A DNA stretch of 64,000 nt, taken from Colwellia sp. Its GTDB lineage: Bacteria; Pseudomonadota; Gammaproteobacteria; Enterobacterales; Alteromonadaceae. The position numbers and the translations under genes are program-made. The stretch is taken from NCBI GenBank assembly GCA_013215385.1, contig JABSOY010000020.1:26511-90510 (forward strand), read 5' to 3'. The notes under the pieces were generated by a model, which was not told where the DNA came from, searched no databases, and saw only the letters and a program-made list of their open reading frames with translations. This document shows, piece after piece, positions 180 to 64,000 of the stretch. Every line of letters starts with the position of its first letter. The stretch's first letter is position 1.

Positions 180-1462
<1,283 letters not shown>

Positions 1463-1514
1463 AGACTGCTATCTGCAGTAAAGTACCGCTGTAGATAGCC
1501 ATTTGAGGCATAAC

Positions 1515-2427: not shown

Positions 2428-2955
2428 TTATAGAGCCGATTTACACAAACCGTATGCATAAGAGTCCACATATTGATTATTAATTAAGATATGTTGCTTA
2501 AAACATCCTTCTCGAGAGAAGCCCATTTTTTCCAATACGACGAAAGAAGCTTCATTATGCACAGAACAAAATGCGACTAATTTGTTAAAATTAAGCTCAT
2601 TGAGCACATATTCTTTAACTAGCTTTAATGCACTGCTAGTAATACCTTTCCTTTGGAAACCACTTTTTATAATAAAACCAATTTCAGCCGTTTTAGTGTC
2701 ATGGTTTACAACTCTAAGTGAAACCCAGCCAATTTTTTCATCAGTAGCTATTTTCGTGATCGGTAAAGTGCACCAGCGATCACTTTTTATATCCCAGGGT
2801 AATGATCTAATTTTAAATGCTGCTTTTGCTTCTTCTGTTGTCAGTGTTTTAGAGACATGTTTCATAATTTTTGAGCACGTTAAAATATCAACAAAAAACT
2901 CAAAATCCAATTCGCAAAGTGGCGATAAATTAATTCTATCATCTGATAATTGCAC
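2428..2955 (-). CDS. GNAT family N-acetyltransferase (RimJ/RimL-like)
   Basis: 175 aa with a GTG start. The acetyl-CoA binding stretch is EIGFIIKSGFQRKGITSSALKLV and the length fits a GNAT. An attC R'-like core lies 20 bp upstream, followed by an AAGGA RBS. Confidence 0.8.
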   Translation of the reverse strand: MQLSDDRINLSPLCELDFEFFVDILTCSKIMKHVSKTLTTEEAKAAFKIRSLPWDIKSDRWCTLPITKIATDEKIGWVSLRVVNHDTKTAEIGFIIKSGFQRKGITSSALKLVKEYVLNELNFNKLVAFCSVHNEASFVVLEKMGFSREGCFKQHILINNQYVDSYAYGLCKSAL

Positions 2956-2967
2956 GATAATCCTTTA

Positions 2968-3072
2968 GTTTTATAACGCCATATTAAGCGGAAAATAATA
3001 ATTAGCTAAAATTTGTGAGGAAAAAACAACCGCTAGTAGTTATTTGTCCGTTTTAACCCCTCATAGTTTTTT
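2968..3072 (-). repeat. attC-like recombination site (degenerate member)
   Basis: The left end TATAACGCC-ATATTAAGCGG and central GCTAAAATTTGTGAGGAAAAAACAACC match the family. The right end is CCGTTTTAA...GTTTTTT. The right core overlaps the stop codon of the upstream cassette ORF. Confidence 0.5.
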
Positions 3073-4093: not shown

Positions 4094-4122
4094 ATGAACT
4101 CCGTATCGGTGATTAATTAAAT

Positions 4123-4220
4123 TTCTAACGCTAGATTAAGCGGTAAAATAAGTCAGCTAAAATACCGAACTAAGTGTAAGTAGCCAACCATTTATGTTCA
4201 GTTAGGTTGCTTTGTTATAC
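4123..4220 (-). repeat. attC-like recombination site
   Basis: Sequence runs TTCTAACGC-TAGATTAAGCGG ... AGCCAACC ... GTTATAC. The inverse cores are TTCTAAC and GTTATAC, and the site ends directly at the stop of ORF 4221..4655. Confidence 0.6.
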
Positions 4221-4655
4221 TTAAGTAAGAAGTGAAAATTGAGATTTGAACTGAGCGATCAATTTTTTATTTTTTGAAGAGATAATTAAGCACTTTTCAG
4301 CCTGGCAAATAAAACTAAATAGTTTATCTATTGGCTGCCCGTTGTTATCCAATTTAGCAATAAAGTCATAGAAGTTATATATCTTATTAGAAGATTTACT
4401 CGAGCTAGTAATATAGTCTTCTGAACTCAATTCCATAATTCGCTTCGGGTCAAACTTAACTAACCTAATTAAGGAAACATTATACTCATTTTCTATGTCG
4501 CAAATATAATTATGAACACTTTGTTTACTCGTTGATTCTTTGCAATTTTCAGGCATTACAATAACCTGATCAAATGCATTAATAGTTAAAACATTATCGT
4601 TCGATATTACTGTACTTGAAAACCCTACTGCCAACAATATAGCTAAATATTTCAT
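4221..4655 (-). CDS. hypothetical secreted protein (cassette ORF)
   Basis: 144 aa with N-terminal signal-like MKYLAILLAVGFSSTVIS and an AGGAG RBS. I recognise no family. Confidence 0.6.
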   Translation of the reverse strand: MKYLAILLAVGFSSTVISNDNVLTINAFDQVIVMPENCKESTSKQSVHNYICDIENEYNVSLIRLVKFDPKRIMELSSEDYITSSSKSSNKIYNFYDFIAKLDNNGQPIDKLFSFICQAEKCLIISSKNKKLIAQFKSQFSLLT

Positions 4656-4670
4656 CTGAACTCCTTGTAT

Positions 4671-4763
4671 GTATAACGCCTAATAAGCGGGAATAAATAG
4701 TTGATTAAAATTGCAACGAACCAAGATTTAATCGTTTTTTCTTCATCATATTTTCACACAAGG
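4671..4763 (-). repeat. partial or degenerate attC-like site overlapping the 3' end of the MocR gene
   Basis: The left half GTATAACGCC-TAATAAGCGG-GAATAAATAGTTGATTAAAATTGCAACGAACCAAG matches the family well. The expected right half (CCGTTT..CTTGTTAxx) is at best very degenerate. Confidence 0.45.
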
Positions 4764-26048: not shown

Positions 26049-26226
26049 TTTTTGACTCAACGTTTCAAACGATAAGAACATATTAATAGCTTAGTCAGAG
26101 CTAGTTAACTTAAAGTTGAGTTCAAATTGAATAAATTTCGATTTTTTAAATAATTCGATTGATTAAACTATTCACTAATGAATTTAAGTTTTACAAATAT
26201 CAAGTTGGACCTTTCAGGAGAATAGT

Positions 26227-53723: not shown

Positions 53724-54793
53724 TGACGATCCACCCTAATAAAGCTCCAGCTGCACTCGTTCATGGCGGGCAACTCAATCAAATGGCTGAGCTTTACCAA
53801 ATACCTACTGAACAATGGCTAGATCTTTCTACCGGCATAAGTCCAACGAGTTATCCGATCCCTGAAATACCGCAAGATATTTGGCAGCAATTACCGCAGC
53901 CAAGCAAAAGCTTATTCAACGCAGCTCGGCGTTATTATGGAACTAAAAATATTAGCGCAACTAGTGGTAGCCAAGCAATTATCGCGCGTTTACCGCATTT
54001 ATTTAAACATTACGTGCAAAAAAACATCACTCACATTGATGTCTGGTTACCGCAGGTAGGTTATAAAGAACATGAAAAATCATGGCGTGATGCTGGTTTT
54101 AATATTAAGCAATATCAACAATTACCCTCTGGTGAAGAATTAACTCAACACGCGATTGTGGTCGTTATTAACCCCAATAATCCGACCGGTAAATTGCAAC
54201 AGCAACCAACGTTAACAGCATTACTCAAAAAAATAGCGGCTCTATCAGGTTGGTTAGTAGTTGATGAAGCTTTTATGGATGTTATTCAGCCCAGCCAGTC
54301 GATTATTAATTTAACTGACAATAAGCACCTTTTTGTTTTACGTTCGGTTGGTAAGTTTTTTGGTTTAGCTGGTATTCGAATTGGCTTCTTAAGTGCCAAT
54401 CAATATTGGCTAGAAAAGTTAAAAGCAATGTCTTCGCCATGGGAAGTAAACGGTCCGGCACAATTTATTACTGAGCAAGCATTAAATAATCAGCAATGGC
54501 AATCTAGACAACAACAAACACTTATTACGTTATCAACGCAACTCGAAGAATTATTAACAGCAACGTTTTTAAAGCCGTTAAGTAAAGACGCAGAAATAAA
54601 AATTAGCATAAGTGGCTGCGGATTATTTAAAACATTAATTCACCCTCAAGCGACAGAGCTTTTTCAATCATTCTGTCGACAGGGGCTTTACGTGCGTTTA
54701 TGCGATGAAAAAAACGCCCTTCGTTTTGGTGTACCTAAGCAAGATCAATTTGCTAAACTAATTAAGTTACTTGCTCAACATCGCCATAGCTGA
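53723..54793 (+). CDS. cobD: threonine-phosphate decarboxylase (class I/II aminotransferase fold)
   Basis: N-terminal HGGQL...DLSTGISP. The PLP Lys region is RSVGKFFGLAGIRIG. It is coupled to cbiB (TAATG). Confidence 0.8.
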   Translation: MTIHPNKAPAALVHGGQLNQMAELYQIPTEQWLDLSTGISPTSYPIPEIPQDIWQQLPQPSKSLFNAARRYYGTKNISATSGSQAIIARLPHLFKHYVQKNITHIDVWLPQVGYKEHEKSWRDAGFNIKQYQQLPSGEELTQHAIVVVINPNNPTGKLQQQPTLTALLKKIAALSGWLVVDEAFMDVIQPSQSIINLTDNKHLFVLRSVGKFFGLAGIRIGFLSANQYWLEKLKAMSSPWEVNGPAQFITEQALNNQQWQSRQQQTLITLSTQLEELLTATFLKPLSKDAEIKISISGCGLFKTLIHPQATELFQSFCRQGLYVRLCDEKNALRFGVPKQDQFAKLIKLLAQHRHS

Positions 54794-55294
54794 AGCGAGT
54801 TTATCTGCATATTCAGTGTTTTTTAACTGCCCTTTTTCGCTATCAAAATTATCATAAAAGTTTGGCACAGATAAATGAGCTTTCACATCACCAGCAAAAT
54901 ATGGTGCTGAATTTACTGCTGCAGCTAAAACTGTTGCTGCGCCGCCAGGACCCGGCGAGGTAGAAAGTAATACTAACGGTTTATTTTGATATACTTTTTG
55001 CAGCGTACGAGAACTCCAGTCAAATAGGTTTTTAAATGCTGCGGTATATGAACCATTGTGCTCTGCAAAACCAATAACCACAGCATCAGCACTGGCTATT
55101 TTATCAATAAAGTTCTGAGCTAATTGCGGCTTACCTAATTCAGCTTCTCTATCTTCACTAAACAAAGGCATTTCATAATCATTAATATCAAGCACTTCAA
55201 CTTGTGCATTTTCCACTAAACTTGCGGCGTGGCTTACTAACTGTTTATTAATTGATTTACGGCTACTGGTGGCAGCAAAAGCGATAATTTTCAT
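54767..55294 (-). CDS. NADPH-dependent FMN reductase family protein
   Basis: MKIIAFAATSSRKSINKQL..., EHNGSYTAAFKN, 175 aa. It overlaps the cobD 3' end by 27 nt in convergent orientation. Confidence 0.8.
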   Translation of the reverse strand: MKIIAFAATSSRKSINKQLVSHAASLVENAQVEVLDINDYEMPLFSEDREAELGKPQLAQNFIDKIASADAVVIGFAEHNGSYTAAFKNLFDWSSRTLQKVYQNKPLVLLSTSPGPGGAATVLAAAVNSAPYFAGDVKAHLSVPNFYDNFDSEKGQLKNTEYADKLASAMAMLSK

Positions 55295-55408
55295 ATGAAC
55301 TCCAATTTTGTAACGATATACCTACTATTTATAGGTATTGCAATGAAAGTAGTGTAGTTTATTTCCTATAGATTAATAACAACCTAATTACAAACATATT
55401 GTTTCCAT

Positions 55409-56341
55409 ATGAAAGCTAATACAACTTTATTCCCACCCCAAAATAAAAGTAATTTACTTGATGGCATCGCTATTTTTGTGCAAGTTGTACAAAGTAAAAG
55501 CTTTGTCAATGCTGCTGAAAAAATGAATCACTCAACCTCTTATATCAGTAAAGAGGTCAGTAAGTTAGAAACTCGTTTAGGCGTGCGTTTATTGCATCGC
55601 ACCACAAGGACATTGAGCTTAACATCTGAAGGTGAAGTTTATTATCAACAATGTCAGCAGATAATTGAAGATGCTTTGCAAGTAGAAAGTAGTATTTCAG
55701 GACGACAGCAAATACCTCAAGGTCGTTTAAAATTAAGCTGCCCTGTTGGTATAGGCGTTTCACGTATTCGCCCTATATTGGCAGAGTTTCTTGCTAAGTA
55801 TCCAAAGATAACTTTAGACATTGACTTAAACGATCATAAAGTAGATTTAGTTGCCGATGGCTTTGATATAGTCATCAGAGCTGCAGTTCAACTTGAAGAC
55901 TCGAGTTTGATCAGTCGCCGTTTTATGAACTCAACTAGCCTGACGCTCGCTTCACCTGAATATTTAAAGAATCATGGTACACCTATGCACCCTGAGGAGT
56001 TAGTTGATCATCAAATGATCAGTTACCGTAACTTAAAAACACCTGAAACTTGGCACTATACCACTAAGAGCGGGCACAAAACTCAGACCCATGTGACGAG
56101 CCGCGTATCATGTAATAACTCAGAAATGATGATTTCACTTTGTTTGGCTGGGCAAGGCATAATACGCATGCCGCTTTTTAATTTACGAGAAGAAGTAGAG
56201 TCCGGTAAATTAATTCCGTTGTTTGAAGATTTAATGCCGATTAATATAGGCGTTTATCTGGTTTATCCAAGTAAAAAAAATATGCCCGCTAAGCTGAGGT
56301 GTTTCATAGACTTTATAATGGAAAAACTAGGCGATAGTTAG
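55409..56341 (+). CDS. LysR family transcriptional regulator
   Basis: HTH FVQVVQSKSFVNAAEKMNHSTSYISKEVSKLE. It is divergent from the FMN reductase gene. Confidence 0.85.
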   Translation: MKANTTLFPPQNKSNLLDGIAIFVQVVQSKSFVNAAEKMNHSTSYISKEVSKLETRLGVRLLHRTTRTLSLTSEGEVYYQQCQQIIEDALQVESSISGRQQIPQGRLKLSCPVGIGVSRIRPILAEFLAKYPKITLDIDLNDHKVDLVADGFDIVIRAAVQLEDSSLISRRFMNSTSLTLASPEYLKNHGTPMHPEELVDHQMISYRNLKTPETWHYTTKSGHKTQTHVTSRVSCNNSEMMISLCLAGQGIIRMPLFNLREEVESGKLIPLFEDLMPINIGVYLVYPSKKNMPAKLRCFIDFIMEKLGDS

Positions 56342-56348
56342 TAAACAA

Positions 56349-56984
56349 CTACGCCAAGTGCTGCTTTTGCTCAAACATCCCTTTCACTAAGAAGAATTGA
56401 GCAAGGTAATAGCTGGTCATTATCCAAAAGCTGGCATTAGGTATTTGTTGATAGAATTGATTAAGTCCAATTAATGAATCAGAGATAATAAAACTTATAC
56501 CGCCAATAATCAGCCAAGTATTCGATTTTTGTGACAGTAACGTTGTTATTCCCATCAACAGAAGTACCGTCATATATATCAATACCGGTATAAATAGCTC
56601 ACCTAAACCAGCATAAATGAATGAAAACATGCCAATGCCATACAAGCAATATAATACGATTATCGGCACACGTTTTAAGGGAAAAGGTTTTAAGCTAAAA
56701 ATATAAAAAATATGGGCAACTAAGAAAGAACCTAAACCAAAAATAAACCAATTAATCCGATCGTAATCTAAGAAGAAGTCTCCTAAAGCGGAAAATACTA
56801 AACCGACTATAAATAGTTTATGAGCACTTTCTCGAGTTATAGACCATTGTTGCCATGAAAACTGGAGTAAAACAGCGATAGGTAAAATCTTCAATGCCCA
56901 GCTAAACGGAAACGGTGTTAAAAAAGTAGAAAGAATAAATATAATGGCAAAAGATATAAATAAATTTTGCTGTGTTTTCGTCAT
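56349..56984 (-). CDS. YhhN-family lysoplasmalogenase-like membrane protein
   Basis: 211 aa and about 7 TM. The motifs ALGDFFL and ISDSLIG are typical of YhhN. Confidence 0.7.
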   Translation of the reverse strand: MTKTQQNLFISFAIIFILSTFLTPFPFSWALKILPIAVLLQFSWQQWSITRESAHKLFIVGLVFSALGDFFLDYDRINWFIFGLGSFLVAHIFYIFSLKPFPLKRVPIIVLYCLYGIGMFSFIYAGLGELFIPVLIYMTVLLLMGITTLLSQKSNTWLIIGGISFIISDSLIGLNQFYQQIPNASFWIMTSYYLAQFFLVKGMFEQKQHLA

Positions 56985-57291
56985 TTTTTTATATTCCTAT
57001 TAAATATTTCCCTCAGTTTATTGAATAAACGTTTGAAAATCATCTTTTAAATCAACAAGTGATAATAGGTAAAGTTTTAATACTAAGAAGCCATTAAGAG
57101 TTCTACACGATAGAATAATATAACTGAATTAATGTTTTATAAGCTCAGTAAAGCTAATTTTTTGGTTAAACCTTTGTTTAGTGCTAAAAACTGAACGACG
57201 AGTACCATGACACGTAGCAAAAGCTTTAACAGCTAAAAATAATAAGTTCTATAGATAATTAAATGACCACAGAGGAGCTATGATTACCTAT

Positions 57292-57327
57292 AAAAACGCT
57301 TAGCCGAATAGAATAGGGCTAAGCGTT
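57292..57327 (-). terminator. rho-independent terminator of the TonB-dependent receptor gene
   Basis: On the minus strand: AACGCTTAGCC-loop-GGCTAAGCGTT followed by TTTTT. Confidence 0.75.
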
Positions 57328-57358
57328 GTGTTTACTAATGTACCATTTAAAACCGGTA

Positions 57359-59458
57359 TTAAAACTTGTAACTTACCCCGAACTTTACGGTTCTAGGTTT
57401 ACCCACATTAATCTCACCGTTTTCACCACCGGCTAAATAACCTTTATCAAACATGTTTTCAATATTCAATCTCACTAATAAGTCATTGCCTGCCATAGGT
57501 AAAGCATAGCTGAAGCCAGCATCAAAACGAGTGTAACCCGATTTTTTTAGGCTATTTTTAGCATCAGCATAACGATCACCTTCGTAAAAGGCACCAAGAT
57601 TAAGTGCGGCATTTTCTGAAATTGAATACTTAAGCCAAACAGAAGCGGTTAACTCTGGTACATCTTCAGGACGGTTGCCTTGATATTCATTATGGGCATC
57701 ATATTTTGCATCGAGATACATAGCAGAAGTGATCAATGATAAGTTTTCATTGATCTCACCAATTACGCCGATCTCTAACCCTTTATGGCGTTGAATACCG
57801 CCTTGCGTTGTGATCATCTCGAATTCAGCATCGTTCTCCAAGTTAACTTCAAGCACGATATTTTTACGTTTGATGTCAAAAGCCGCGGCATTAAGGCGTA
57901 ATTTACCAGAAAATAATTCCCACTTAGCACCAACTTCAACCATGATGCCTTTTACCGGATCTAGCTCAAGACCGAAATTTGCATCTTCATCATCAGTTAC
58001 ATCACCTTGCGGTTCAAAGCTTTCACTGTAATTTGCATAAAGTGAAGCATTTTCATTCGGATGATAAATCACCCCAAATTTAGGCAATACCGAAGAGTTA
58101 TCCGCATCGGCTTTTTCTTGCTTATCAAAACGCACCCCGAGTAATACTTGCCATTGATCATTAACTGTGATCAAATCTTGCCCGAAAACACCATAATATT
58201 TATAAGATTCATCTTTTGCTTTCGCATCAGCGTAATCAAGTTCTTGACGAGGGATAATCGTACCTTCGTTAAGGTTCGCTTCCTGTTTATCACCTTTCAC
58301 TTTTAAAGAGGTATATTCGTGCTTTAAATAATTACCGCCCACTAATAGATCATGGGACAAACCAGCAAAGTCAACTGAGCCTACAAAATCGAAATAAAAG
58401 GCCTTTTGCTGCCAGTCTTCTAATTTATCGTAAGGTTTGTTTTCATAAATACCTGTTTCGGGATCAAAGTCATCTTGTGTTTGCGGCTTACTTTCCCAAC
58501 GTTCACGTTCGTTATGTTGGTTGTTATACCCTGCTTCTAGTTGCCAGTTTTCATTGAGTTGGTAACGAACATCTGCACCATAGTTTTGACTTTGCGCATC
58601 AATTTTTGTCCACGGCATATCCCAAATAAGATCATCACCACCGACCACATCACCATTGTCATCAACCAAAGCACCACTGTCTTGACCCGCTACTTCATCT
58701 GAACTGTCAAAATGAAATGACAAGGTTAAGTCATCATTGACATCAAAATCGGTCATCAGGCTACCGACAAAAAAATCACTTTCTTGCTCGGTACCATCTT
58801 GATATTCACGCCAGTTTTTATTGTCTTCTTTTTCAAGAATAGCGCGATAACGCATGGTCTTTTCTTCATTAAAACTCCCCCCTATATCGAGGCCTAATCT
58901 TAATGAACCATTTTCATCTCCTTTTACTGATATTTCAGTAAACGAATCAAAGCTTGGTTTTTTAGTGACTAAATTAATTAATCCGCCGGGCGTTGATTGC
59001 CCGTAAAGCAGACTTGAAGGTCCTTTCAATACTTCAACATTATCAATCAATGCCATAGGTAAACGATATTTAGAGAAATGCTGGTGGCCATTTTTTAGCA
59101 AGTTGGTACTTTCTTCTAGGGTAAAACCACGCAAACTGAAACGCTCTCGGTCCGTTGTTACCCTGCCAATAGATACACTGGCGTCATTTCTCAGTGCTTC
59201 GCCTAACGTTACCACCAGTTGATCATCCATTACTTCGGTTGGAATAACCGTTACTGATTGAGGAGTATTCAACAATGAAACATTTGAACGCATAGCAGCA
59301 TGCGCTTCGTCTGTTTTGTAATGAGCATGCCTGCCTACTACTGTTAATACTTCGATATCCTTATCGGTTTTATCATCTGCTACTTCCATTGCAAATGCGC
59401 CTGTTGGCTGTAAAATTACTGCGATAACTACGGATATCAATTTAACTTTTGTGTTCAT
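57359..59458 (-). CDS. TonB-dependent siderophore receptor
   Basis: Signal peptide and plug domain (VEVLKGPSSLLYGQSTPGGLINLVTKKP). The 22-strand barrel region ends ...FGVSYKF. A Fur box lies upstream. Confidence 0.9.
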   Translation of the reverse strand: MNTKVKLISVVIAVILQPTGAFAMEVADDKTDKDIEVLTVVGRHAHYKTDEAHAAMRSNVSLLNTPQSVTVIPTEVMDDQLVVTLGEALRNDASVSIGRVTTDRERFSLRGFTLEESTNLLKNGHQHFSKYRLPMALIDNVEVLKGPSSLLYGQSTPGGLINLVTKKPSFDSFTEISVKGDENGSLRLGLDIGGSFNEEKTMRYRAILEKEDNKNWREYQDGTEQESDFFVGSLMTDFDVNDDLTLSFHFDSSDEVAGQDSGALVDDNGDVVGGDDLIWDMPWTKIDAQSQNYGADVRYQLNENWQLEAGYNNQHNERERWESKPQTQDDFDPETGIYENKPYDKLEDWQQKAFYFDFVGSVDFAGLSHDLLVGGNYLKHEYTSLKVKGDKQEANLNEGTIIPRQELDYADAKAKDESYKYYGVFGQDLITVNDQWQVLLGVRFDKQEKADADNSSVLPKFGVIYHPNENASLYANYSESFEPQGDVTDDEDANFGLELDPVKGIMVEVGAKWELFSGKLRLNAAAFDIKRKNIVLEVNLENDAEFEMITTQGGIQRHKGLEIGVIGEINENLSLITSAMYLDAKYDAHNEYQGNRPEDVPELTASVWLKYSISENAALNLGAFYEGDRYADAKNSLKKSGYTRFDAGFSYALPMAGNDLLVRLNIENMFDKGYLAGGENGEINVGKPRTVKFGVSYKF

Positions 59459-59489
59459 ATGTCCTCAATGCCTATTTTCCCAAAAAGTA

Positions 59490-59523
59490 TCAAGTCACTT
59501 GAATCAAGATTCAAGTGACTTGA
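59490..59523. repeat. perfect 16-bp-arm inverted repeat in the receptor leader
   Basis: TCAAGTCACTTGAATC (59490-59505), then AA, then GATTCAAGTGACTTGA (59508-59523). It lies 32 nt upstream of the receptor start codon. Confidence 0.9.
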
Positions 59524-59559
59524 GACTTAATTAATTGTCATGTAAATAATCCAGAGAAT

Positions 59560-59578
59560 CTTAATGAGAACAATTATC
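59560..59578. promoter_or_regulatory. Fur box
   Basis: CTTAATGAGAACAATTATC matches the consensus GATAATGATAATCATTATC at 14 of 19 positions by hand alignment. It sits in the promoter region of the TonB-dependent receptor. Confidence 0.65.
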
Positions 59579-59688
59579 ATTGTCAATTGTAAGAACGCAA
59601 AAAACTGAATGTTTTTATGTATTCAGGCTTTTTTTTATTTGTATCACATTTAATTTACACATTAGAAACATTTAAGTACTCTATAAAT

Positions 59689-60885
59689 TTAATTTATCAA
59701 CAACTGTGGTGAGAATGGCCTAGACGCTTCATCTGGTATAGAAACACTGATAGTGGTTAATACAATTCCTGCCAAGCAGATTATTATTGCGAGTATCCCA
59801 GAAGTCCCCTGCCATTTAACGACAGAGGGCTGCTTACGTTTAACCTTAAGCCAGGCCATGTATATCCCTGACGCTATGATAAAGCTTAGGCATAGACCAA
59901 AGACAAACCAAATAACTTTAGAGGTAATACCTGAAAAATGTCCAAAATGAATGAGGTCTACTGAATCAGTTAAACGGGCATATATTGATAGCTCTGTCGC
60001 ATACTGAACGGCTAACACTTCACCACTCACTGGATGAAGGTAAATACGGTTAGCTCTGTCAACAACAAGAAAGTCATTATTATTACCTCTGATTTCAATC
60101 GGTTTATTAGCGCTATTCGGGTAACGTATATAGGTAATATCCAAACTTTCAAAGGCTACTTTAGCTTTAATAATTACCTTAGTTAAAGCTAATGGTTTTG
60201 CATTAACTACTTCTGATTGTATTTGGGGCGGCTGCGGATAATATTCAATCTTTGCAGTCTGGAGGCTTTGATCAATAAAATACCAGAAACTGGTTATTGA
60301 AACCGTCGCGATAAACCACCATGACCATAGCGCGATGATTTTATGCCAGCTAGACCATGTTGTTCGTTTTGAGCTTTTAAGTTTATCTGGTCGCTTAAAG
60401 AAATAACGCCACCAGTCTTTATAAACAAAAAAACTACTCACTAAAATAATAAGTAGTAATAAGCTTAGTGAAGTAACAATAAGTTTGCCGACATCGCCCA
60501 TCGAAAGCTTGCGGTGGATGTCTCGAATAAAGCGAGACAATCGCCCCCAGCGACCTTCCCCTAAAATTTGTCCGGTATTGGCATCAAAATAGACAAAGCT
60601 GCGCAAATTATTTGTCACTATCTGAGCTTCGCCAGCAAGGTACCTTTCAGGCCTTATTTGAATTCTTTGTAGATAACTATCGGGGTATTTTTTAGCTAGC
60701 TGATTTTCAAGTTGATGAAAGTCGACTTTTGTTCTTGGGGTTAGCGCCCGAAATTTTTGATCGATTAAATATTCAATCTCATGACTTATACTAGCAAGTG
60801 TTCCAGTGAAACATACAAATAATAATAATGCGCCTAAAAATACTCCAGCCCAAGTATGGAGTTGAAACCACTGCTTATTTGTCAC
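59689..60885 (-). CDS. PepSY-associated TM helix protein (PiuB-like iron-regulated membrane protein)
   Basis: 398 aa. N-terminal WFQLHTWAGVFLG motif, four TM segments, and a position upstream of a siderophore receptor. Confidence 0.8.
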   Translation of the reverse strand: MTNKQWFQLHTWAGVFLGALLLFVCFTGTLASISHEIEYLIDQKFRALTPRTKVDFHQLENQLAKKYPDSYLQRIQIRPERYLAGEAQIVTNNLRSFVYFDANTGQILGEGRWGRLSRFIRDIHRKLSMGDVGKLIVTSLSLLLLIILVSSFFVYKDWWRYFFKRPDKLKSSKRTTWSSWHKIIALWSWWFIATVSITSFWYFIDQSLQTAKIEYYPQPPQIQSEVVNAKPLALTKVIIKAKVAFESLDITYIRYPNSANKPIEIRGNNNDFLVVDRANRIYLHPVSGEVLAVQYATELSIYARLTDSVDLIHFGHFSGITSKVIWFVFGLCLSFIIASGIYMAWLKVKRKQPSVVKWQGTSGILAIIICLAGIVLTTISVSIPDEASRPFSPQLLIN

Positions 60886-60944
60886 TTTTAACCTTTACAA
60901 TTTCCTACCAACCCTTTTGATGGTCGATATACCCCAATATTTTG

Positions 60945-61028
60945 CCGCCACTATATCAGCTATATATTATTAAGGTAAATTTTGGACTATGTCTCAGAGT
61001 TTAGCTGTTTTCGGGTTTGCTGTTAGTT
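60945..61028 (-). repeat. degenerate terminal attC-like site
   Basis: GGTAAATTTTGGACT...AGCTGTTTTCGGGTTTGCTGTTAGTT resembles the family centre and right half (GGCTAAAATTTTGAGGAAC...AACTGT.ATTTTTCCGTTT...CTTGTTAG). The left half is poorly conserved. Confidence 0.35.
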
Positions 61029-61221
61029 ACGCAGGTTGATAAATAAGTTATCTCGCTAAATCCTCTCATATCACCATAGAAAGCTAAAGCGTATAATTAT
61101 GTCAGTATGGTTTGCTTTCGTAGCCAAACTTCATTACAGGCATTAAACCAAATTTCTTCTTTTGCCACATAACGGTCATTACCTAAAAAACACAAAACAA
61201 CGTTTCGGATTAGAATTCGTA

Positions 61222-61322
61222 TCGATAACGCCCCACTAAGAGGCAAATAATAGTTGGTTAAAATAAGCGACGAAGGAGCAAAAACCAACTATTTTTTGTC
61301 CTTGTTTAACAGCTTGTTAGCC
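61222..61322 (-). repeat. attC-like recombination site
   Basis: CGATAACGCC-CCACTAAGAGG-CAAATAATAGTTGGTT ... AACCAACTATTTTTT-GTCCTTGTTTAACAGCTT-GTTAGCC. The internal arms AATAGTTGGTT and AACCAACTATT are a perfect match. Confidence 0.7.
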
Positions 61323-61324
61323 AT

Positions 61325-61849
61325 TTATTCGGGTTCCATAGGAGCGTTGTCAAATAATGTAATATAGTCAGTACTTTCGGATAACTTTAAAAAAATAGAA
61401 AATTTAACATTCTTCGGTTCTTTAAATACTTCCTTAAAATTGACATTCACTGCAAATTCGAAACCACTAGGTTTTTCAGCCCTCATTTTGTCTTGAATGA
61501 TAATTAAATTATTTATTGCTTCTTCAGTGAAGACAAGTTCATATTCTGTCCTTTCAGCGAGAGAGTTAAGCCATCCATTTTCAGCGGGAAGTGTTTTAAC
61601 AGCGTAAATATATAAAGGGTAATTTTGTATAATGTTGCCTTTTGTAGTGACTAAAGTTAAAGATATTTTCGTTTTGGAGATATTTATCTCTAGTGGTTTA
61701 GTGATATGTATTTTGGCTTTTAATTCATTTGGGGCAAGTTCCAAAAAGCTATTTTCATCAAAAGAACTAAATTTAAGCATTGTTGCAAAGGGAATGCTTG
61801 TGCAACTGCAAAGGATTAAGCAATTTATGATTATAAAAATCCGTTTCAT
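61325..61849 (-). CDS. hypothetical lipoprotein (cassette ORF)
   Basis: 174 aa with lipobox-like MKRIFIIINCLILCSCTS and a GGAG RBS. I recognise no family. Confidence 0.65.
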   Translation of the reverse strand: MKRIFIIINCLILCSCTSIPFATMLKFSSFDENSFLELAPNELKAKIHITKPLEINISKTKISLTLVTTKGNIIQNYPLYIYAVKTLPAENGWLNSLAERTEYELVFTEEAINNLIIIQDKMRAEKPSGFEFAVNVNFKEVFKEPKNVKFSIFLKLSESTDYITLFDNAPMEPE

Positions 61850-61864
61850 GATAACTCCATTTAT

Positions 61865-61962
61865 GGCTAACGCTTATATAAGCGGAAAATTATAGTAGGC
61901 TAAAATTTTGAGGAACGAAAAAAAGCCAACTGTAATTTTTCCGTTTGATGTTCTTGTTAGCT
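61865..61962 (-). repeat. attC-like recombination site
   Basis: GGCTAACGC-TTATATAAGCGG ... GGCTAAAATTTTGAGGAACGAAAAAAAGCCAACTG ... TTTTTCCGTTTGATGTTCTT-GTTAGCT. The right core contains the stop codon of ORF 61957..62265. Confidence 0.7.
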
Positions 61963-62265
61963 TTTAGCTGATTGACCATTATCCAGTTTCAGTAAACAAT
62001 TACCATTCTTCTGTTTATTGACTGAATAACCATCCGCAAAAAACTTACGATCTGAAAAACTTATTTCAAACTTACTTTTTAAATTAAAATAAGCCTGAAA
62101 ATTGCAGTTCTTTAATAAAAGTTCTGATATGTAATGATTTTTTGATATGAGATTACCGTTAATGTCGGTATTTTCACTGGTGACAACTTTACCTTCCAAC
62201 ACTTTGTTATTCTCGGCATAAGAGCCAAACGAAAAAACTAATAATACTAAAATTGAATATTTCAC
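61957..62265 (-). CDS. hypothetical small secreted protein (cassette ORF)
   Basis: 102 aa with a GTG start after AAGGA and signal peptide MKYSILVLLVFSFGSYA. Confidence 0.6.
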   Translation of the reverse strand: MKYSILVLLVFSFGSYAENNKVLEGKVVTSENTDINGNLISKNHYISELLLKNCNFQAYFNLKSKFEISFSDRKFFADGYSVNKQKNGNCLLKLDNGQSAKS

Positions 62266-62289
62266 ATAAATCCTTATTTGTGATTAAAA

Positions 62290-62386
62290 AGCTAACGCCC
62301 CATTAAGAGGCTTTTAATTGTTGGCTAAAATGCGAGGAACGAAGCTAGCCAACTGTTCAGCGTCCGTCTTGAATAGCTTGTTATGT
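62290..62386 (-). repeat. attC-like recombination site
   Basis: AGCTAACGCC-CCATTAAGAGG ... TTGGCTAAAATGCGAGGAACGAAGCTAGCCAACTG ... CGTCCGTCTTGAATAGCTT-GTTATGT. The right core contains the stop codon of ORF 62381..62641. Confidence 0.7.
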
Positions 62387-62641
62387 AGATCGACTCTCCA
62401 TCCGTGAATTTTGGAAATTTAGGTGACTACTTCTAATAAACATAACTATGGAAATGGTAATGACAGCTAGTCCAAATCCAATACAAATGTAGTCACCACT
62501 TGTATATGACACATTTACTCTTCCGTTGAAGCCAGAAGCATATGCGTCTGCAAACTTACCCAGAACATAAGCTCGGCTTAAAACGGGTGTAATACACATA
62601 AAAGTGCCTAAAATTGCAATTAATTTTATAAACTTATCCAT
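62381..62641 (-). CDS. hypothetical small membrane protein (cassette ORF)
   Basis: 86 aa with two hydrophobic helices (LIAILGTFMCITPVL and ICIGFGLAVITISIVMFI) and an AGGAG RBS. Confidence 0.55.
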   Translation of the reverse strand: MDKFIKLIAILGTFMCITPVLSRAYVLGKFADAYASGFNGRVNVSYTSGDYICIGFGLAVITISIVMFIRSSHLNFQNSRMESRST

Positions 62642-62668
62642 TGAATACTTCTCCTTTTTTTGAAATCT

Positions 62669-62760
62669 ACATAACGCTTTGCTAAGCGGTAAATAATGGT
62701 TGGCTATAATCGCGAAGCGATGGCTAACTGTTATTTTTCCGTTTAAGCAACTTGTTATGT
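62669..62760 (-). repeat. attC-like recombination site
   Basis: The ends ACATAAC and GTTATGT are perfect inverse cores. The L-box-like pair GCTAAGCGG and CCGTTTAAGC carries a bulge. The central stem is TGGTTGGCTA...TGGCTAACTG with the tip TCGC-GAA-GCGA. Confidence 0.75.
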
Positions 62761-62788
62761 GTTTATTTTTGCATACAACAATTGTTTT

Positions 62789-63901
62789 TTAGTCAGGTAT
62801 TTCTATTTCTTGATTTTCATTTATTCGAAGACTATGGAGCTTAAGAACATCAATCGATGTTCTTCTCCCTGATGTGATGAGTAATTGACATGTAATAGAT
62901 ATTTGCTTTTTCTCATGTTCAGCCTTTAACGTCTCATAAAGTCTAGAGTCTGTTTCTATAAAGCAAGTATGCTCTTTACCATCAATCTCTAATCGTAAAT
63001 AAACCCTGCCTTTTTCATCCTCTATAGGCCAACTATATTTCTCAATATAAGCTGGTAAATCAACGTACTCTTTAGCTTTACTTTTACTCAATATACCTTT
63101 AAAACGCTCTATTTTTTCCCTGTCAGAATAATTAAAAACAACCTTGTTAGGAACATTGTCAAAAACTTCCTCCTTGAATGACCAGTCAAAATTGAACTCT
63201 AATTTATCTGAACTATTTGAAAATAAGTCGAGAAAATTATGACAAAACGAACTGTCGATACCGATACTGTGTAATTTTGCAGGAGACTCATAATCATTAG
63301 ATTTTATTTTTTCAGAAATTCTAGATAAGGCGATTGCCAAATTAGCATTTACGTACCGGCTAAGCGAGGTCTCATGCTCAAATACATTGTTCTGACTATA
63401 TTCTTCATCAATATCTAATAATTGAAGTTCAACAGTGTATATGAATGATCCCGCTTTAGGTGCCAACATATTTACACCTGATAGATAATGTTTAATAGCT
63501 TTCCTTTTGCCTTTAACTTTTATGTTATTACTTGCAGATGACTTTATAATTCCATACAGTCCTGTTAAGGCATTTAGACCTTCACTAAACTTGATTCGAC
63601 CATGATTTATTCGTTCTCCGGATGAGCGAACCTGTAAAAAGTCACTTTCTCCATTAAGAAGTTTATTTCTGAAATTTTCAGAGCAAAATCCATGTGCATT
63701 TGAAATGTTTAGAATAGCTTCAGCTAATAAGGTATTTGACTGCTCATGATTAACTAATACTTCAGCAGGCAGAACGATCTCAAGCTCATGGGGTTGGTCA
63801 TACCAAACACTAAATCGTTCAGGGACAACTGTCTTTTCCTGAATTCCATTTATACGAAAGTAATTTTTAAGAGAAGTAAGAATAGCTTGATTATTGTTCA
63901 T
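62789..63901 (-). CDS. hypothetical protein, 370 aa (second gene of a multi-gene cassette)
   Basis: Long uninterrupted ORF. Its ATG overlaps the stop of an upstream ORF (ATGA at 63898-63901). It has no signal peptide and no domain I recognise. Confidence 0.7.
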   Translation of the reverse strand: MNNNQAILTSLKNYFRINGIQEKTVVPERFSVWYDQPHELEIVLPAEVLVNHEQSNTLLAEAILNISNAHGFCSENFRNKLLNGESDFLQVRSSGERINHGRIKFSEGLNALTGLYGIIKSSASNNIKVKGKRKAIKHYLSGVNMLAPKAGSFIYTVELQLLDIDEEYSQNNVFEHETSLSRYVNANLAIALSRISEKIKSNDYESPAKLHSIGIDSSFCHNFLDLFSNSSDKLEFNFDWSFKEEVFDNVPNKVVFNYSDREKIERFKGILSKSKAKEYVDLPAYIEKYSWPIEDEKGRVYLRLEIDGKEHTCFIETDSRLYETLKAEHEKKQISITCQLLITSGRRTSIDVLKLHSLRINENQEIEIPD

Positions 63902-64000
63902 ACTTTAGCCACCTCCAAGTTGTAAATCATTTCCGCTTTACTAGCTAATTCCATCATGTTTACTAAAGCCTTACTATCAAACCTTTGTTTCAATGGAATC
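63898..64000 (-). CDS. 3' end of an unidentified gene (partial, continues beyond the window)
   Basis: The minus-strand frame is open from the window edge: ...IPLKQRFDSKALVNMMELASKAEMIYNLEVAKV*. Its stop TGA overlaps the ATG of the 370-aa ORF. Confidence 0.5.
   Translation of the reverse strand, partial: IPLKQRFDSKALVNMMELASKAEMIYNLEVAKV

What the first reader, a model, noticed from the sequence alone, without database searches (positions are those of the whole stretch)
60945..64000. Sedentary-integron-like cassette array with near-identical attC sites, running off the window
From the PepSY promoter region to the window end, minus-strand ORFs alternate with attC-like sites at 61222-61322, 61865-61962, 62290-62386 and 62669-62760. 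The ORFs encode a lipoprotein (174 aa), a secreted protein (102 aa), a membrane protein (86 aa), a 370-aa protein and a partial gene. A degenerate terminal site lies at 60945-61028, followed by a decayed cassette of about 195 bp (61029-61221). The sites share the left end (A/C)TAACGC..TAAG(C/A)GG, the centre GGCTAAAAT..GAGGAACGAA..AGCCAAC, and the right end CCGT(T/C)T...CTTGTTA(G/T). Site 62669-62760 has perfect ACATAAC/GTTATGT cores and a bulged stem. Two stop codons lie inside the right core and a third lies 3 nt from it. High similarity among attC sites is the hallmark of large chromosomal integrons, so intI/attI would be expected beyond 64000. All cassette products lack recognisable domains and are candidates for new functions.
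Basis: partly seen in the sequence, partly recalled or inferred. Interest (0 to 1): 0.8.

Follow-up and report, generated by a model that had tools for sequence, protein, structure and literature searches.

The report
Integron gene-cassette array in Colwellia
This is the far end of a genuine integron-type gene-cassette array in a marine Colwellia genome, and one cassette carries a candidate two-gene anti-phage system; this kind of element is well known, and whether its integrase lies just beyond the window could not be determined.

Summary
The four repeats at 61223-61322, 61865-61962, 62290-62386 and 62669-62760 are genuine attC sites. A covariance model built only from 13 sites next to curated integron integrases in five other genomes recovers them to within 1 nt (73-89 bits, + strand only). 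The family shows 97.9% pairing and 20 of 30 covarying pairs. Conserved one-sided bulges lie on the 3' arm. The cassette-boundary core rule holds for 3 of 3 window pairs and 77% of 242 pairs family-wide, and sites abut ORF 3' ends strand-specifically (77% against 16%).

Three claims fail or are overstated:
- No degenerate site or decayed cassette is detectable at 60945-61221, and 60886-60962 is conserved PepSY backbone.
- Sites A-D are 65-71% identical, not near-identical.
- The partial gene is DUF4365. Together with the 370-aa protein it forms one two-gene cassette matching PADLOC candidate defence system PDC-M02.

The window contains no intI. It does contain a second, integrase-less cluster (CALIN) at 2428-4759. 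The closest relatives have neither array nor integrase at the PepSY locus. Complete integron versus CALIN stays unresolved, and the 91-kb contig of the Colwellia MAG encoding NQZ24027.1 should settle it. This is a new member of a known kind, of modest interest.

The parts
61223..61322 (+). attC site A, the last site of the array. The + strand is the folding (bottom) strand. R' core is at 61223-61229 (CGATAAC on +) and R'' core at 61316-61322 (GTTAGCC on +).
   Evidence: Covariance model R1 scores 79.0 bits at E=3e-18 on +, against 15.6 bits on -. nhmmer gives E=7.6e-25. It is 92.7% identical to a site in the integrase-linked L031 array.
61865..61962 (+). attC site B. Its left core GGCTAAC is the exact reverse complement of A's right core GTTAGCC.
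   Evidence: R1 scores 88.5 bits at E=9e-21 on +, against 20.5 bits on -. It folds as a hairpin at -15.2 kcal/mol (z = -3.2), against -13.2 on the other strand. Core rule.
62290..62386 (+). attC site C. Its left core AGCTAAC matches B's right core GTTAGCT.
   Evidence: R1 scores 72.6 bits at E=1.5e-16 on +, against 11.4 bits on -. Core rule. The stop codon of the 86-aa ORF lies inside its right core.
62669..62760 (+). attC site D. Its left core ACATAAC matches C's right core GTTATGT. Its right core GTTATGT matches the R' core of the next upstream site (L001:83-89, equivalent to window position ~64558-64564).
   Evidence: R1 scores 78.9 bits on +, against 22.4 bits on -. It folds at -22.0 kcal/mol (z = -6.4) on +, against -14.5 on -. 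It is 96.7% identical to a site in Colwellia sp. MB3u-41.
61229..61870 (-). Cassette 1 (642 bp, taking the crossover at G|TT). It holds the 174-aa lipoprotein gene 61325-61849 and attC A.
   Evidence: ORF. The protein belongs to a real family of 194 representative clusters with an invariant Cys16 in an L-x-G-C lipobox. The AlphaFold model has pLDDT 92.3, and no fold match reaches E<=1e-3. No Pfam, NCBIfam or PADLOC hit.
61871..62295 (-). Cassette 2 (425 bp). It holds the 102-aa ORF 61957-62265 (GTG start, signal-peptide-like N-terminus) and attC B.
   Evidence: No family hits. The stop codon lies inside the R'' core.
62296..62674 (-). Cassette 3 (379 bp). It holds the 86-aa ORF 62381-62641, which has two hydrophobic segments, and attC C.
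   Evidence: No family hits. A GGAG-type ribosome-binding site lies upstream of the ATG (read from the sequence).
62675..64000 (-). Cassette 4 (about 1889 bp in total, running to about 64563 beyond the window). It is a two-gene module: PDC-M02B (370 aa, 62789-63901) and PDC-M02A/DUF4365 (185 aa, 63898 to about 64455, only its last ~34 codons inside the window). The genes overlap by 4 nt, and the cassette ends with attC D.
   Evidence: L001 is 100% identical to window 52789-64000 and extends 646 nt further. Pfam DUF4365 at E=1.3e-22. PADLOC PDC-M02B at E=2.7e-170 and PDC-M02A at E=1.3e-48. The gene pair is conserved in Photobacterium, Shewanella, Halomonas and a phage-like contig.
60963..61222 (.). 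A 260-bp lineage-specific stretch between the last attC and the conserved PepSY upstream region. Its origin is unknown, and it is not detectable as an attC or a cassette remnant.
   Evidence: Homology to the relatives L136 and L137 ends at 60962. No covariance-model, profile or BLAST signal.
2971..3068 (+). attC site F of a second, integrase-less cluster (CALIN). It follows the 340-aa S9-type hydrolase gene 3071-4093 (-). Its right (R'') end is degenerate.
   Evidence: R1 scores 51.6 bits at E=5e-11. nhmmer gives E=8e-13. The hydrolase matches Peptidase_S9 at E=1e-29. A 73%-identical homologue is an attC-flanked cassette in Thalassotalea sp. ND16A.
4123..4220 (+). attC site G of the second cluster. 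It follows the 144-aa ORF 4221-4655 (-). Its right core GTTATAC matches the left core GTATAAC of half-site H.
   Evidence: R1 scores 27.9 bits at E=1e-4. nhmmer gives E=3e-7. The cores were read from the sequence.
4671..4724 (+). Half attC site H. Only the L'-R' half is present, and it is fused to the 3' end of the MocR-like regulator gene 4705-6153 (-). It marks the upstream end of the second cluster.
   Evidence: nhmmer matches profile positions 3-56 only, at E=1e-5. R1 scores 18.2 bits at E=0.036. ORF.
2428..2955 (-). GNAT acetyltransferase gene (175 aa), the last gene of the second cluster. It has no attC of its own.
   Evidence: Acetyltransf_3 at E=1.5e-22. A 47%-identical homologue is an attC-flanked cassette in Colwellia sp. 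MB3u-8, L117. No site was found at 2355-2427.

Best explanation
Window 61223-64000, continuing to at least ~64650 outside the window, is the promoter-distal end of an integron-type gene-cassette array on the minus strand of a Colwellia sp. chromosome.

The array has four complete cassettes:
- a 174-aa lipoprotein gene;
- a 102-aa ORF for a putative secreted protein;
- an 86-aa ORF for a putative membrane protein;
- a two-gene DUF4365 + PDC-M02B module, which is a candidate anti-phage system.

Each cassette ends in a ~92-100-nt attC site of a family shared by Colwelliaceae, Pseudoalteromonas, Shewanella, Psychromonas and Thalassotalea.

Inferred mechanism, from established integron biology:
- The window's + strand of each site (the 'bottom strand') folds into an imperfect hairpin when single-stranded. 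The hairpin has paired R boxes, a short unpaired spacer and one-sided extrahelical bases.
- An IntI tyrosine recombinase cuts between G and TT of the R' core. It excises cassettes as circles (attC x attC) and re-inserts them at attI next to the Pc promoter.
- Distal cassettes such as these are mostly silent unless they carry their own promoter. The PDC-M02 module may do so, because ~60 nt of its upstream DNA travels with it between genomes.

Shown here: site identity, structure, strand polarity, cassette boundaries, and the family's association with intI elsewhere.

Not shown: recombination activity, expression, and whether this array is joined to intI/attI (a complete integron) or is an integrase-less cluster (CALIN) that an IntI elsewhere could mobilise in trans. 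My estimate is about 35-40% complete integron and 60-65% CALIN.
For: 1. Independent model. A covariance model was built only from 13 sites in five arrays adjacent to TIGR02249 integron integrases (399-506 bits against a cutoff of 265). It finds the four sites at 73-89 bits on the + strand, against 11-22 bits on the - strand.
2. Structure. On 150 family sites, 97.9% of cells are paired, 20 of 30 pairs have compensatory changes, 0 of 500 shuffles reach the observed values, and slid controls are <=50% paired. G.T pairs are conserved on this strand only. One-sided bulges lie on the 3' arm, including a T in 148 of 150 sites. Sites B and D fold better on the + strand.
3. Cassette-boundary rule. The right core of site n is the reverse complement of the left core of site n+1 in 3 of 3 window pairs and 187 of 242 pairs (77%) family-wide. 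This compares with 14.5% within a single site and ~9% in controls. The rule also links site D to the next upstream site.
4. ORF association. An ORF ends at or just before R'' on the predicted top strand for 77% of 330 sites, against 16% in the mirror control. All 4 testable window sites comply.
5. Array behaviour. Sites are co-oriented in 118 of 119 loci, with a median spacing of 532 bp. Dense arrays reach 18 sites per 8 kb.
6. Cassette mobility. Homologues of two cassette genes from the window's second cluster are attC-flanked cassettes in other genera. The PDC-M02 pair occurs without attC in four other contexts, so it was captured here.
7. Lineage specificity. The array is absent from the same locus in the two closest relatives.
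Against: - No integrase, attI or Pc was seen. There is none in the 64-kb window, and the sequence beyond ~64650 could not be obtained.
- IntegronFinder's general attC model could not be run, and Rfam has no hit in the window. Membership therefore rests on a family-specific model plus the association with intI.
- The covariation alignment was fitted to the model's structure, which inflates the pairing percentages (caveat).
- Sites C, F and G do not give the canonical hairpin as their minimum-free-energy fold.
- The R cores each deviate by one base from the RYYYAAC/GTTRRRY consensus.
- Recombination and expression are untested.
Confidence: 0.92

Rival explanations
1. The array is the distal part of a complete, large sedentary chromosomal integron. 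On this reading intI (on the + strand), attI and Pc lie a few to tens of kb to the right of 64000.
For: - In all five integrase-linked loci the orientation places intI on that side.
- The array continues past the window with at least a fifth site.
- Two independent short-read assemblies break inside that site, which suggests a multi-copy repeat and therefore more cassettes.
- Related genomes hold dense arrays of this site family, up to 18 sites per 8 kb.
- The window's probable source contig is 91 kb, so up to 27 kb may lie beyond the window.
Against: - The same window holds a cluster of the same sites that certainly lacks an adjacent intI (2428-4759).
- The sites are only 65-71% identical.
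- The two nearest relatives have no array or integrase at the locus, so this is not a conserved genus-level integron position.
- None of the top 120 IntI relatives sits on a 91,178-bp contig (weak evidence).
- CALINs outnumber complete integrons and average 5 sites each (PMC4889954).
Confidence: 0.37
2. The repeats are generic extragenic palindromes (REP/BIME-like elements, MITEs or transcription terminators) that merely happen to lie between genes, with no link to integron recombination.
For: - They are intergenic imperfect palindromes.
- No integrase is present in the window.
- Rfam has no match in the window.
Against: - There are only seven copies in 64 kb. All lie in two co-oriented clusters and none in other intergenic regions.
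- They associate strand-specifically with ORF 3' ends, 77% against 16%.
- The inter-site core-matching rule, 77% against 9-14%, has no explanation under REP or terminator models.
- The same family abuts curated integron integrases in five genomes.
- There are no T-tracts, and terminator-like sites are not enriched.
Confidence: 0.02
3. The array is a decayed, no longer recombining relic, fixed in this lineage with its sites drifting.
For: - The second cluster has degenerate sites: F has lost its R'' core, G scores only 28 bits, H is a half-site, and the GNAT gene has no site.
- No integrase was seen.
- IntI fragments or pseudogenes occur next to such sites in four other loci.
Against: - The four sites of the finding score 73-89 bits, within the range of integrase-linked sites (87-110 bits).
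- All three inter-site core pairs are perfect.
- Each site has 90-97% twins in other genomes.
- The array is absent in relatives whose flanking TonB receptor is 88-90% identical at protein level, so the acquisition is recent.
Confidence: 0.12

Closest known systems
Chromosomal integron cassette arrays and CALINs as defined by IntegronFinder (Cury et al. 2016, PMC4889954)
   Same: The array has co-oriented promoter-less cassettes, each ending in a structured attC with R''/R' cores. Median cassette size is ~0.5 kb and most genes are of unknown function. Clusters occur both with and without an adjacent intI. The window's first cluster (2428-4759) fits the CALIN definition outright.
   Different: No intI, attI or Pc was observed for the finding's array, so it cannot yet be assigned to 'complete integron' or 'CALIN'. 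Only five sites were seen, below the SCI thresholds of >19 sites (Cury 2016) or >10 cassettes (Darracq 2024).
Vibrio cholerae superintegron with VCR attC sites (the model sedentary chromosomal integron)
   Same: Both have a taxon-typical attC family of uniform length, a chromosomal location, small cassettes of unknown function, and defence cassettes within the array.
   Different: From general knowledge, VCRs are ~120-nt sites that are highly similar to one another. These sites are 92-100 nt, belong to a different sequence family, and are only 65-71% identical within the array. The family spans several genera and also occurs on Pseudoalteromonas secondary replicons and a few plasmids.
Taxon-specific attC families (Ghaly et al. 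2021, PMC8352920; title and abstract only, seen)
   Same: The idea is the same: attC sequence and structure are conserved within bacterial taxa and can be captured with dedicated covariance models.
   Different: I did not check whether this exact Colwelliaceae/Alteromonadales family is one of their models.
Divona, a DUF4365-containing single-protein anti-phage cassette of the V. cholerae chromosomal integron (Darracq et al. 2024, bioRxiv 10.1101/2024.07.02.601686)
   Same: Both are integron cassettes with a DUF4365 (PD-(D/E)xK-type) nuclease domain, and defence function in this setting has been validated for Divona.
   Different: Here DUF4365 is a stand-alone 185-aa protein, translationally coupled to a 370-aa partner (PDC-M02B) that has no Pfam domain and no crr6 domain. 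No phage assay exists for it in the paper library I could search.
PADLOC candidate system PDC-M02
   Same: Both components match full-length (M02B at E=2.7e-170, M02A at E=1.3e-48), and they are adjacent and overlapping, as in four other genomes.
   Different: This is a candidate only. No paper in the searched library names it, and an integron-cassette context for it has not, to my knowledge, been described.
The DUF4365 nuclease domain of the nuclease-APAZ partner protein in SPARDA short-Argonaute defence systems (PMC10810196, PMC12205087)
   Same: It uses the same nuclease domain family as the effector of a defence system.
   Different: There is no Argonaute or APAZ here. The partner's model shows only weak OB-fold-like local similarity.

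Membership tests
Integron attC site / gene cassette | An imperfect palindrome of about 55-140 nt, bounded by the inverse core R'' (RYYYAAC) and the core R' (G|TTRRRY). | tested here: met
   The sites are 92-100 nt. The conserved TAAC...GTTA ends are invariant in 147-150 of 150 family sites. The window cores ACATAAC, AGCTAAC and GGCTAAC and their complements each deviate by one base from the consensus. The integrase-linked L031 sites are the canonical GCCTAAC/GTTAGGC.
Integron attC site / gene cassette | A conserved hairpin structure rather than a conserved sequence, with extrahelical bases on one arm that mark the recombinogenic bottom strand. | tested here: met
   97.9% of cells are paired and 20 of 30 pairs are compensatory, with clean controls. 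One-sided bulges lie on the 3' arm (column 84 is T in 148 of 150 sites; column 94 is G/A/T), and G.T pairs occur on this strand only. The model scores 73-89 bits on + against 11-22 on -. The identity and order of the bulged bases relative to textbook sites could not be benchmarked here.
Integron attC site / gene cassette | Each cassette carries the last six bases of the preceding site's R' core. The R'' of its own attC is therefore complementary to the start of the cassette, which is the signature of a crossover at G|TT. | tested here: met
   Met in 3 of 3 window pairs plus the D/upstream-site pair. Family-wide it holds for 187 of 242 pairs (77%), against 14.5% within a single site and ~9% for mirrored or random pairs.
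Integron attC site / gene cassette | The site lies immediately 3' of a usually single, promoter-less ORF, and sites are co-oriented in the array. | tested here: met
   All 4 testable window sites comply. Family-wide the figure is 77% against 16% in the mirror control, and 87 stop codons lie inside R''. 118 of 119 loci are co-oriented.
Integron attC site / gene cassette | The sites are recognised by the general attC covariance model of IntegronFinder. | not testable with these tools
   The model is not available here, and Rfam 15 has no hit in the window. As a substitute I used a family model built from integrase-linked sites.
Integron attC site / gene cassette | The sites are recombined by an IntI integrase (excision and integration). 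| not testable with these tools
   This needs an experiment. The only indirect support is that sites of the same family lie adjacent to five TIGR02249 integrases.
Complete integron | An intI gene (a tyrosine recombinase with the IntI-specific domain) adjacent to the array and transcribed divergently from it. | tested here: inconclusive
   There is no IntI-like sequence anywhere in the 64-kb window (tblastn). The upstream end of the array lies outside the window and could not be fetched. The contig-length fingerprint search was negative but weak.
Complete integron | An attI site and a Pc promoter at the head of the array. | not testable with these tools
   The head of the array is not in the available sequence.
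Sedentary chromosomal integron (SCI) | A large array: >19 attC sites or species-wide presence (Cury 2016), or >10 cassettes (Darracq 2024). | tested here: inconclusive
   Only five sites are visible (four plus one partial). The array is absent at the same locus in the two closest relatives.
Sedentary chromosomal integron (SCI) | Highly similar attC sites within the array. | tested here: not met
   Pairwise identity among A-D is 65-71%. The sites belong to one family but to different sub-types, and each sub-type has 90-97% twins in other genomes.
Sedentary chromosomal integron (SCI) | A chromosomal, non-mobile context. | tested here: met
   The array is flanked by PepSY, a TonB-dependent receptor, YhhN, LysR and CobD genes. 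The window's GC content is uniform at 33-43%. No transposase or plasmid genes were noted near the array, but the middle of the window was not fully annotated.
[quoted passage not shown] | At least two attC sites with no intI nearby. | tested here: met
   This is met for the window's first cluster (sites at 2971, 4123 and 4671). That cluster is bounded by fghA on one side and a MocR-like gene on the other, with no IntI in the window. For the finding's own cluster the same test is inconclusive, because its upstream end is unseen.
PDC-M02 candidate anti-phage system (PADLOC) | Both components (M02A with DUF4365, and M02B) are present and adjacent. | tested here: met
   Shown. The genes overlap by 4 nt, and the same architecture occurs in four other genomes.
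PDC-M02 candidate anti-phage system (PADLOC) | The system confers phage resistance. | not testable with these tools
   No paper in the searched library names it.
REP/BIME-type extragenic palindromes | Many copies dispersed through intergenic regions, independent of gene orientation and of integrases. | tested here: not met
   There are seven copies in 64 kb. All lie in two co-oriented clusters and are tied to ORF 3' ends.

The most novel reading that the evidence does not exclude
The DUF4365 + PDC-M02B module is a functional, self-promoted two-gene anti-phage system: a PD-(D/E)xK-type nuclease effector paired with a sensor that carries an OB-fold-like nucleic-acid-binding domain. On this reading it was recently captured as an integron cassette. 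Colwelliaceae would then keep their cassette pool as several small integrase-less clusters scattered between core genes (two within this 64-kb window) rather than in one array. A single IntI would mobilise these clusters in trans, and some would be expressed by read-through from host genes, as in the half-attC fused to the MocR-like gene.
Probability: 0.3. Interest if true: 0.5.

Novelty: new member of a known kind. Interest (0 to 1): 0.3.

Why it matters
The finding adds a well-delimited cassette array and an attC family with a working covariance model and hundreds of sites. The family spans Colwellia, Pseudoalteromonas, Shewanella, Psychromonas and Thalassotalea, which are cold-marine bacteria whose integrons are little described. 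The paper library I searched holds essentially nothing on Colwellia integrons.

It also gives a concrete example of a PADLOC candidate defence system (PDC-M02) packaged as an integron cassette. This fits the recent demonstration that chromosomal integrons store anti-phage systems (Darracq et al. 2024), and it offers a compact two-gene system for testing.

The three small cassettes are typical uncharacterised cassette cargo. One of them belongs to a real lipoprotein family of about 200 clusters with a confident model and no match in the Protein Data Bank (best Foldseek E 0.013).

None of this changes how integrons are understood.

Tried and rejected
**Extending the contig beyond 64000**
- Exact-protein look-ups of the 370-aa and PepSY proteins reached only a 34.9-kb metagenome contig that breaks 646 nt past the window, plus 1.8-kb contigs.
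- The metagenome scan with PepSY found nothing closer than 33% identity.
- The 91-kb NCBI MAG contig is known only through NQZ24027.1.

**Contig-length fingerprint**
- None of the 120 best relatives of a Colwellia IntI lies on a 91,178-bp contig. This is weak evidence, because clustering can hide it.

**The 'degenerate site' at 60945-61028**
- It was rejected.

**A possible attC downstream of the Shewanella submarina copy of PDC-M02**
- It resembled a Vibrio VCR site from memory, but it does not fold better than shuffles, so I dropped it.

**The cystatin-like lead for the 174-aa protein**
- The lead was one plant PP1 hit. The structure search does not support it.

**Fold of PDC-M02B**
- No match reaches E<=1e-3. 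There are only weak OB-fold/SSB local hits and no sequence hit to the Protein Data Bank.

**The marginal model hit at 25188-25266 (-)**
- It lies inside a 310-aa ORF and is treated as chance.

**L016, which shares adhC with the window**
- It is not syntenic, so it is uninformative.

**Promoter and terminator scans of 60800-64000**
- There is no enrichment over shuffles.

**Synteny around PepSY-TonB**
- The flanks differ on both sides in all three genomes, so no empty-site junction could be defined beyond the homology end at 60962.

Full report
**Observation**

The region holds four direct repeats of about 92-100 nt at 61223-61322 (A), 61865-61962 (B), 62290-62386 (C) and 62669-62760 (D). They alternate with minus-strand ORFs of 174, 102, 86 and 370 aa and a partial gene that runs off the window. 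The shared ends TAACGC-N5-TAAG(C/A)GG and CTTGTTA are real. The left-end pattern has six exact matches in 64 kb. Four are these sites and two lie at 2974 and 4126.

**Is it an attC family? An independent test**

A degenerate 39-40-nt pattern from the sites was scanned against one genome per species. Most were in Colwellia and Colwelliaceae, and others in Psychromonas, Pseudoalteromonas, Shewanella, Thalassotalea and some Vibrionaceae. It found full-length homologues in five of these loci:
- L031, Ca. Colwellia aromaticivorans
- L043, Pseudoalteromonas sp. ZZD1
- L022, P. fuliginea
- L085, Shewanella sp. MBTL60-007
- L102, a Psychromonas MAG

All five pass the curated NCBIfam integron-integrase model TIGR02249, at 399-506 bits against a cutoff of 265. 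In each locus the sites lie on the side and strand expected if cassettes diverge from intI.

I aligned the 13 sites of these five integrase-linked arrays, with no window sequence included. Fifteen of 30 predicted pairs show compensatory changes. I then built covariance model R1 from this alignment.

| Site | + strand (bits) | - strand (bits) |
|---|---|---|
| B | 88.5 | 20.5 |
| A | 79.0 | 15.6 |
| D | 78.9 | 22.4 |
| C | 72.6 | 11.4 |

R1 also finds 2971-3068 (51.6 bits), 4123-4220 (27.9 bits) and, marginally, 4671-4759 (18.2 bits). A sequence-only profile built from 217 distinct external sites gives the same seven hits. It shows that 4673-4724 is a left half-site only.

**Structure and strand**

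On 150 family sites, 97.9% of pair cells are standard pairs and 20 of 30 pairs have changes on both sides (634 cells). No shuffle out of 500 reaches these values. Sliding the partners by 1-3 columns drops pairing to 30-50% and the covariation score from 0.41 to at most 0.08. The caveat is that this alignment was fitted to the model.

The folded strand has these features:
- an invariant TAACG/TGTTA R-box stem;
- a 2x2 unpaired spacer;
- a long stem with G.T pairs that exist only on this strand;
- one-sided bulges on the 3' arm: a T in 148 of 150 sites, and a G/A/T about 9 nt nearer the R box.

Sites B and D fold as this hairpin. They are more stable on the + strand than on the - strand: D at -22.0 against -14.5 kcal/mol (z = -6.4), and B at -15.2 against -13.2. 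From established integron biology, this is the architecture of a recombinogenic attC bottom strand. For these minus-strand cassettes the window's + strand is the bottom strand.

**Cassette signatures**

*Boundary rule.* In integrons the crossover at G|TT makes each cassette begin with the last six bases of the previous site's R' core, and these pair with the R'' of the cassette's own attC. In the window the pairs are:
- A-right GTTAGCC with B-left GGCTAAC;
- B-right GTTAGCT with C-left AGCTAAC;
- C-right GTTATGT with D-left ACATAAC.

All three are perfect, whereas the two ends of a single site usually do not match. Across all loci the rule holds for 187 of 242 adjacent pairs (77%). This compares with 14.5% within one site, 9% for the mirrored arrangement and 8.9% for random pairing.

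*ORF association.* For 254 of 330 sites (77%), an ORF on the predicted top strand ends between 8 nt inside R'' and 40 nt upstream of it. Eighty-seven of these use the TAA inside the core. The mirror control gives 16%. All four testable window sites comply.

*Array behaviour.* Sites are co-oriented in 118 of 119 loci, with a median spacing of 532 bp.

These properties exclude REP-like elements, MITEs and terminators.

**What the cassettes are**

Taking the crossover points, the cassettes are:

| Cassette | Coordinates | Length | Content |
|---|---|---|---|
| 1 | 61229-61870 | 642 bp | 174-aa protein |
| 2 | 61871-62295 | 425 bp | 102-aa ORF |
| 3 | 62296-62674 | 379 bp | 86-aa ORF |
| 4 | 62675 to ~64563 | ~1889 bp | two genes |

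*Cassette 4.* A metagenome contig (L001) is 100% identical to window 52789-64000 and extends 646 nt further. It shows that the partial gene is a 185-aa DUF4365 protein (Pfam E = 1.3e-22) that overlaps the 370-aa gene by 4 nt. The two genes therefore form one cassette. About 100 nt upstream of it is another, different-looking palindrome ending in GTTATGT, which is exactly the complement of site D's R''. Two independent assemblies break inside this fifth site.

PADLOC identifies the pair as candidate defence system PDC-M02: M02B at E = 2.7e-170 over its full length, and M02A at E = 1.3e-48. M02B has only 20 homologue clusters among 5.8 billion proteins. In Photobacterium, Shewanella, Halomonas and a contig with PM2-like phage genes plus ParDE, it is always preceded by an overlapping DUF4365 gene. 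None of those copies has an R1-type attC. DNA homology between these contexts starts about 60 nt upstream of the DUF4365 start codon. From this I infer that the module carries its own control region and was captured as a cassette in this lineage.

DUF4365 is the nuclease domain of SPARDA short-Argonaute systems. It also occurs in Divona, an experimentally validated defence cassette of the V. cholerae chromosomal integron. An AlphaFold model of M02B is confident (pLDDT 85.9). It has no significant match to solved structures and only weak local similarity to OB-fold ssDNA-binding proteins (E = 6e-3 to 0.3).

*Cassette 1.* The 174-aa protein belongs to a real family of 194 representative clusters. 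The family has an invariant Cys16 in an L-x-G-C lipobox. Its model is confident (pLDDT 92.3) and has no significant fold match.

*Cassettes 2 and 3.* The 102-aa and 86-aa ORFs have no family hits.

**The terminal end**

The claimed degenerate site at 60945-61028 and decayed cassette at 61029-61221 are not supported:
- No covariance-model hit at E<=10 and no profile hit.
- Folding is no better than shuffles.
- No similarity to 120 attC-bearing loci.

DNA homology to the closest relatives runs from the TonB receptor through PepSY and stops at window position 60962. These relatives are Cognaticolwellia mytili and a MAG, whose TonB receptors are 90% and 88% identical at protein level. So 60886-60962 is conserved PepSY upstream backbone, and 60963-61222 is lineage-specific DNA of unknown origin.

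**Complete integron or CALIN?**

The window contains no IntI-like sequence. It does contain a second cluster at 2428-4759, made up of:
- a GNAT gene;
- site F;
- an S9-type hydrolase gene;
- site G;
- a 144-aa ORF;
- half-site H, fused to the 3' end of a MocR-like gene.

This cluster lies between fghA and the MocR-like gene and has no adjacent integrase, so it is a CALIN. Homologues of its hydrolase (73% identical) and its GNAT (47% identical) are attC-flanked cassettes in Thalassotalea and in another Colwellia.

The relatives have no sites and no integrase within 10 kb of PepSY-TonB. The TonB receptor is 100% identical to NQZ24027.1 from a Colwellia sp. MAG, on a 91,178-bp contig. That contig is probably the window's source, but it could not be fetched. 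None of the 120 best relatives of the Colwellia IntI lies on a contig of that length, which is weak evidence.

In complete genomes CALINs (279) outnumber complete integrons (164) and average five sites each (PMC4889954). I put the chance that this array is joined to an intact intI at about 35-40%.

**Comparison and verdict**

This is a genuine integron-type cassette array, with 0.92 confidence. It uses an attC family shared across several marine gammaproteobacterial genera. The family is also present on Pseudoalteromonas secondary replicons and a few plasmids, where only the sites match and never these cassette genes.

Identity among the sites is 65-71%, so they are not 'near-identical'. Each site does have 90-97% twins in other genomes, which points to a shared cassette pool.

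This is a new member of a known kind. The most useful specific result is that a PADLOC candidate defence system sits in a cassette. That fits recent work on integrons as stores of defence genes and gives a compact system to test. Interest is modest.

Noticed in passing
window 2428-4759: This is a second cluster of the same attC family, 57 kb from the finding. It runs GNAT gene, site F (2971-3068, R'' end degenerate), S9-type hydrolase gene, site G (4123-4220), 144-aa ORF, half-site H (4671-4724). It lies between fghA and a MocR-like regulator gene and has no integrase, so it is a CALIN. Half-site H is fused to the last ~8 codons of the MocR-like gene, so read-through from that gene could drive the cassettes.
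   Followed up: partly
L001:1-92 (equivalent to window ~64555-64646, outside the window): This is a partial palindrome of a different sequence type. It has 13-bp arms ATATGGACTCTCC/GGGGAGTCCATAT, then a 5-nt spacer, then GTTATGT. It obeys the core-matching rule with site D, and both short-read assemblies break inside it. It is probably an attC of another family and multi-copy in that genome. It has no match in the 120 fetched loci.
   Followed up: partly
L134:2873-3694 and 9447-11751: One homologue of the DUF4365 + PDC-M02B module sits directly after a block of small genes that includes a PM2-type spike protein (P2_N/P2_C). A ParDE toxin-antitoxin pair follows it. The module therefore also travels with a corticovirus-like prophage or satellite.
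   Followed up: no
window 1319-1465: A 19-nt tandem repeat (TCACTTTGATAAATAAGAG, 7.9 copies, 80% matches) starts inside the last codons of the adhC-like gene and fills the adhC-fghA intergenic region.
   Followed up: no
window 59485-59528: A 21-nt inverted repeat (95% complementary, 2-nt gap) lies between the PepSY gene's stop codon and the TonB-dependent receptor gene's start. It may be an operator or an attenuator of this iron-uptake pair.
   Followed up: no
Loci L014, L023, L033, L046, L069, L099, L110: Short contigs carrying this gammaproteobacterial attC family are binned into MAGs labelled Phenylobacterium, Flavobacteriales, Francisellaceae, Saprospiraceae and Desulfotalea. This is most likely mis-binning of cassette-array fragments rather than true hosts.
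   Followed up: no
window 25188-25266 (-): This is a marginal covariance-model hit (18.4 bits, E=0.03) with TATAAC...GTTATGG ends and an internal hairpin. It lies inside the 3' part of a 310-aa ORF (25149-26081, -), so it is probably chance.
   Followed up: partly
L003, L005, L009, L091: Short IntI-like fragments (56-148 aa tblastn pieces) lie next to sites of this family. One example is in Colwellia sp. TT2012. This suggests integrase pseudogenes beside some arrays.
   Followed up: no
window 57357-60962, compared with L136 and L137: The PepSY + TonB-receptor pair is a 3.6-kb module conserved at 78-80% DNA identity. Its neighbours differ completely on both sides in three related genomes, so the pair itself sits at a rearrangement or insertion hotspot.
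   Followed up: partly
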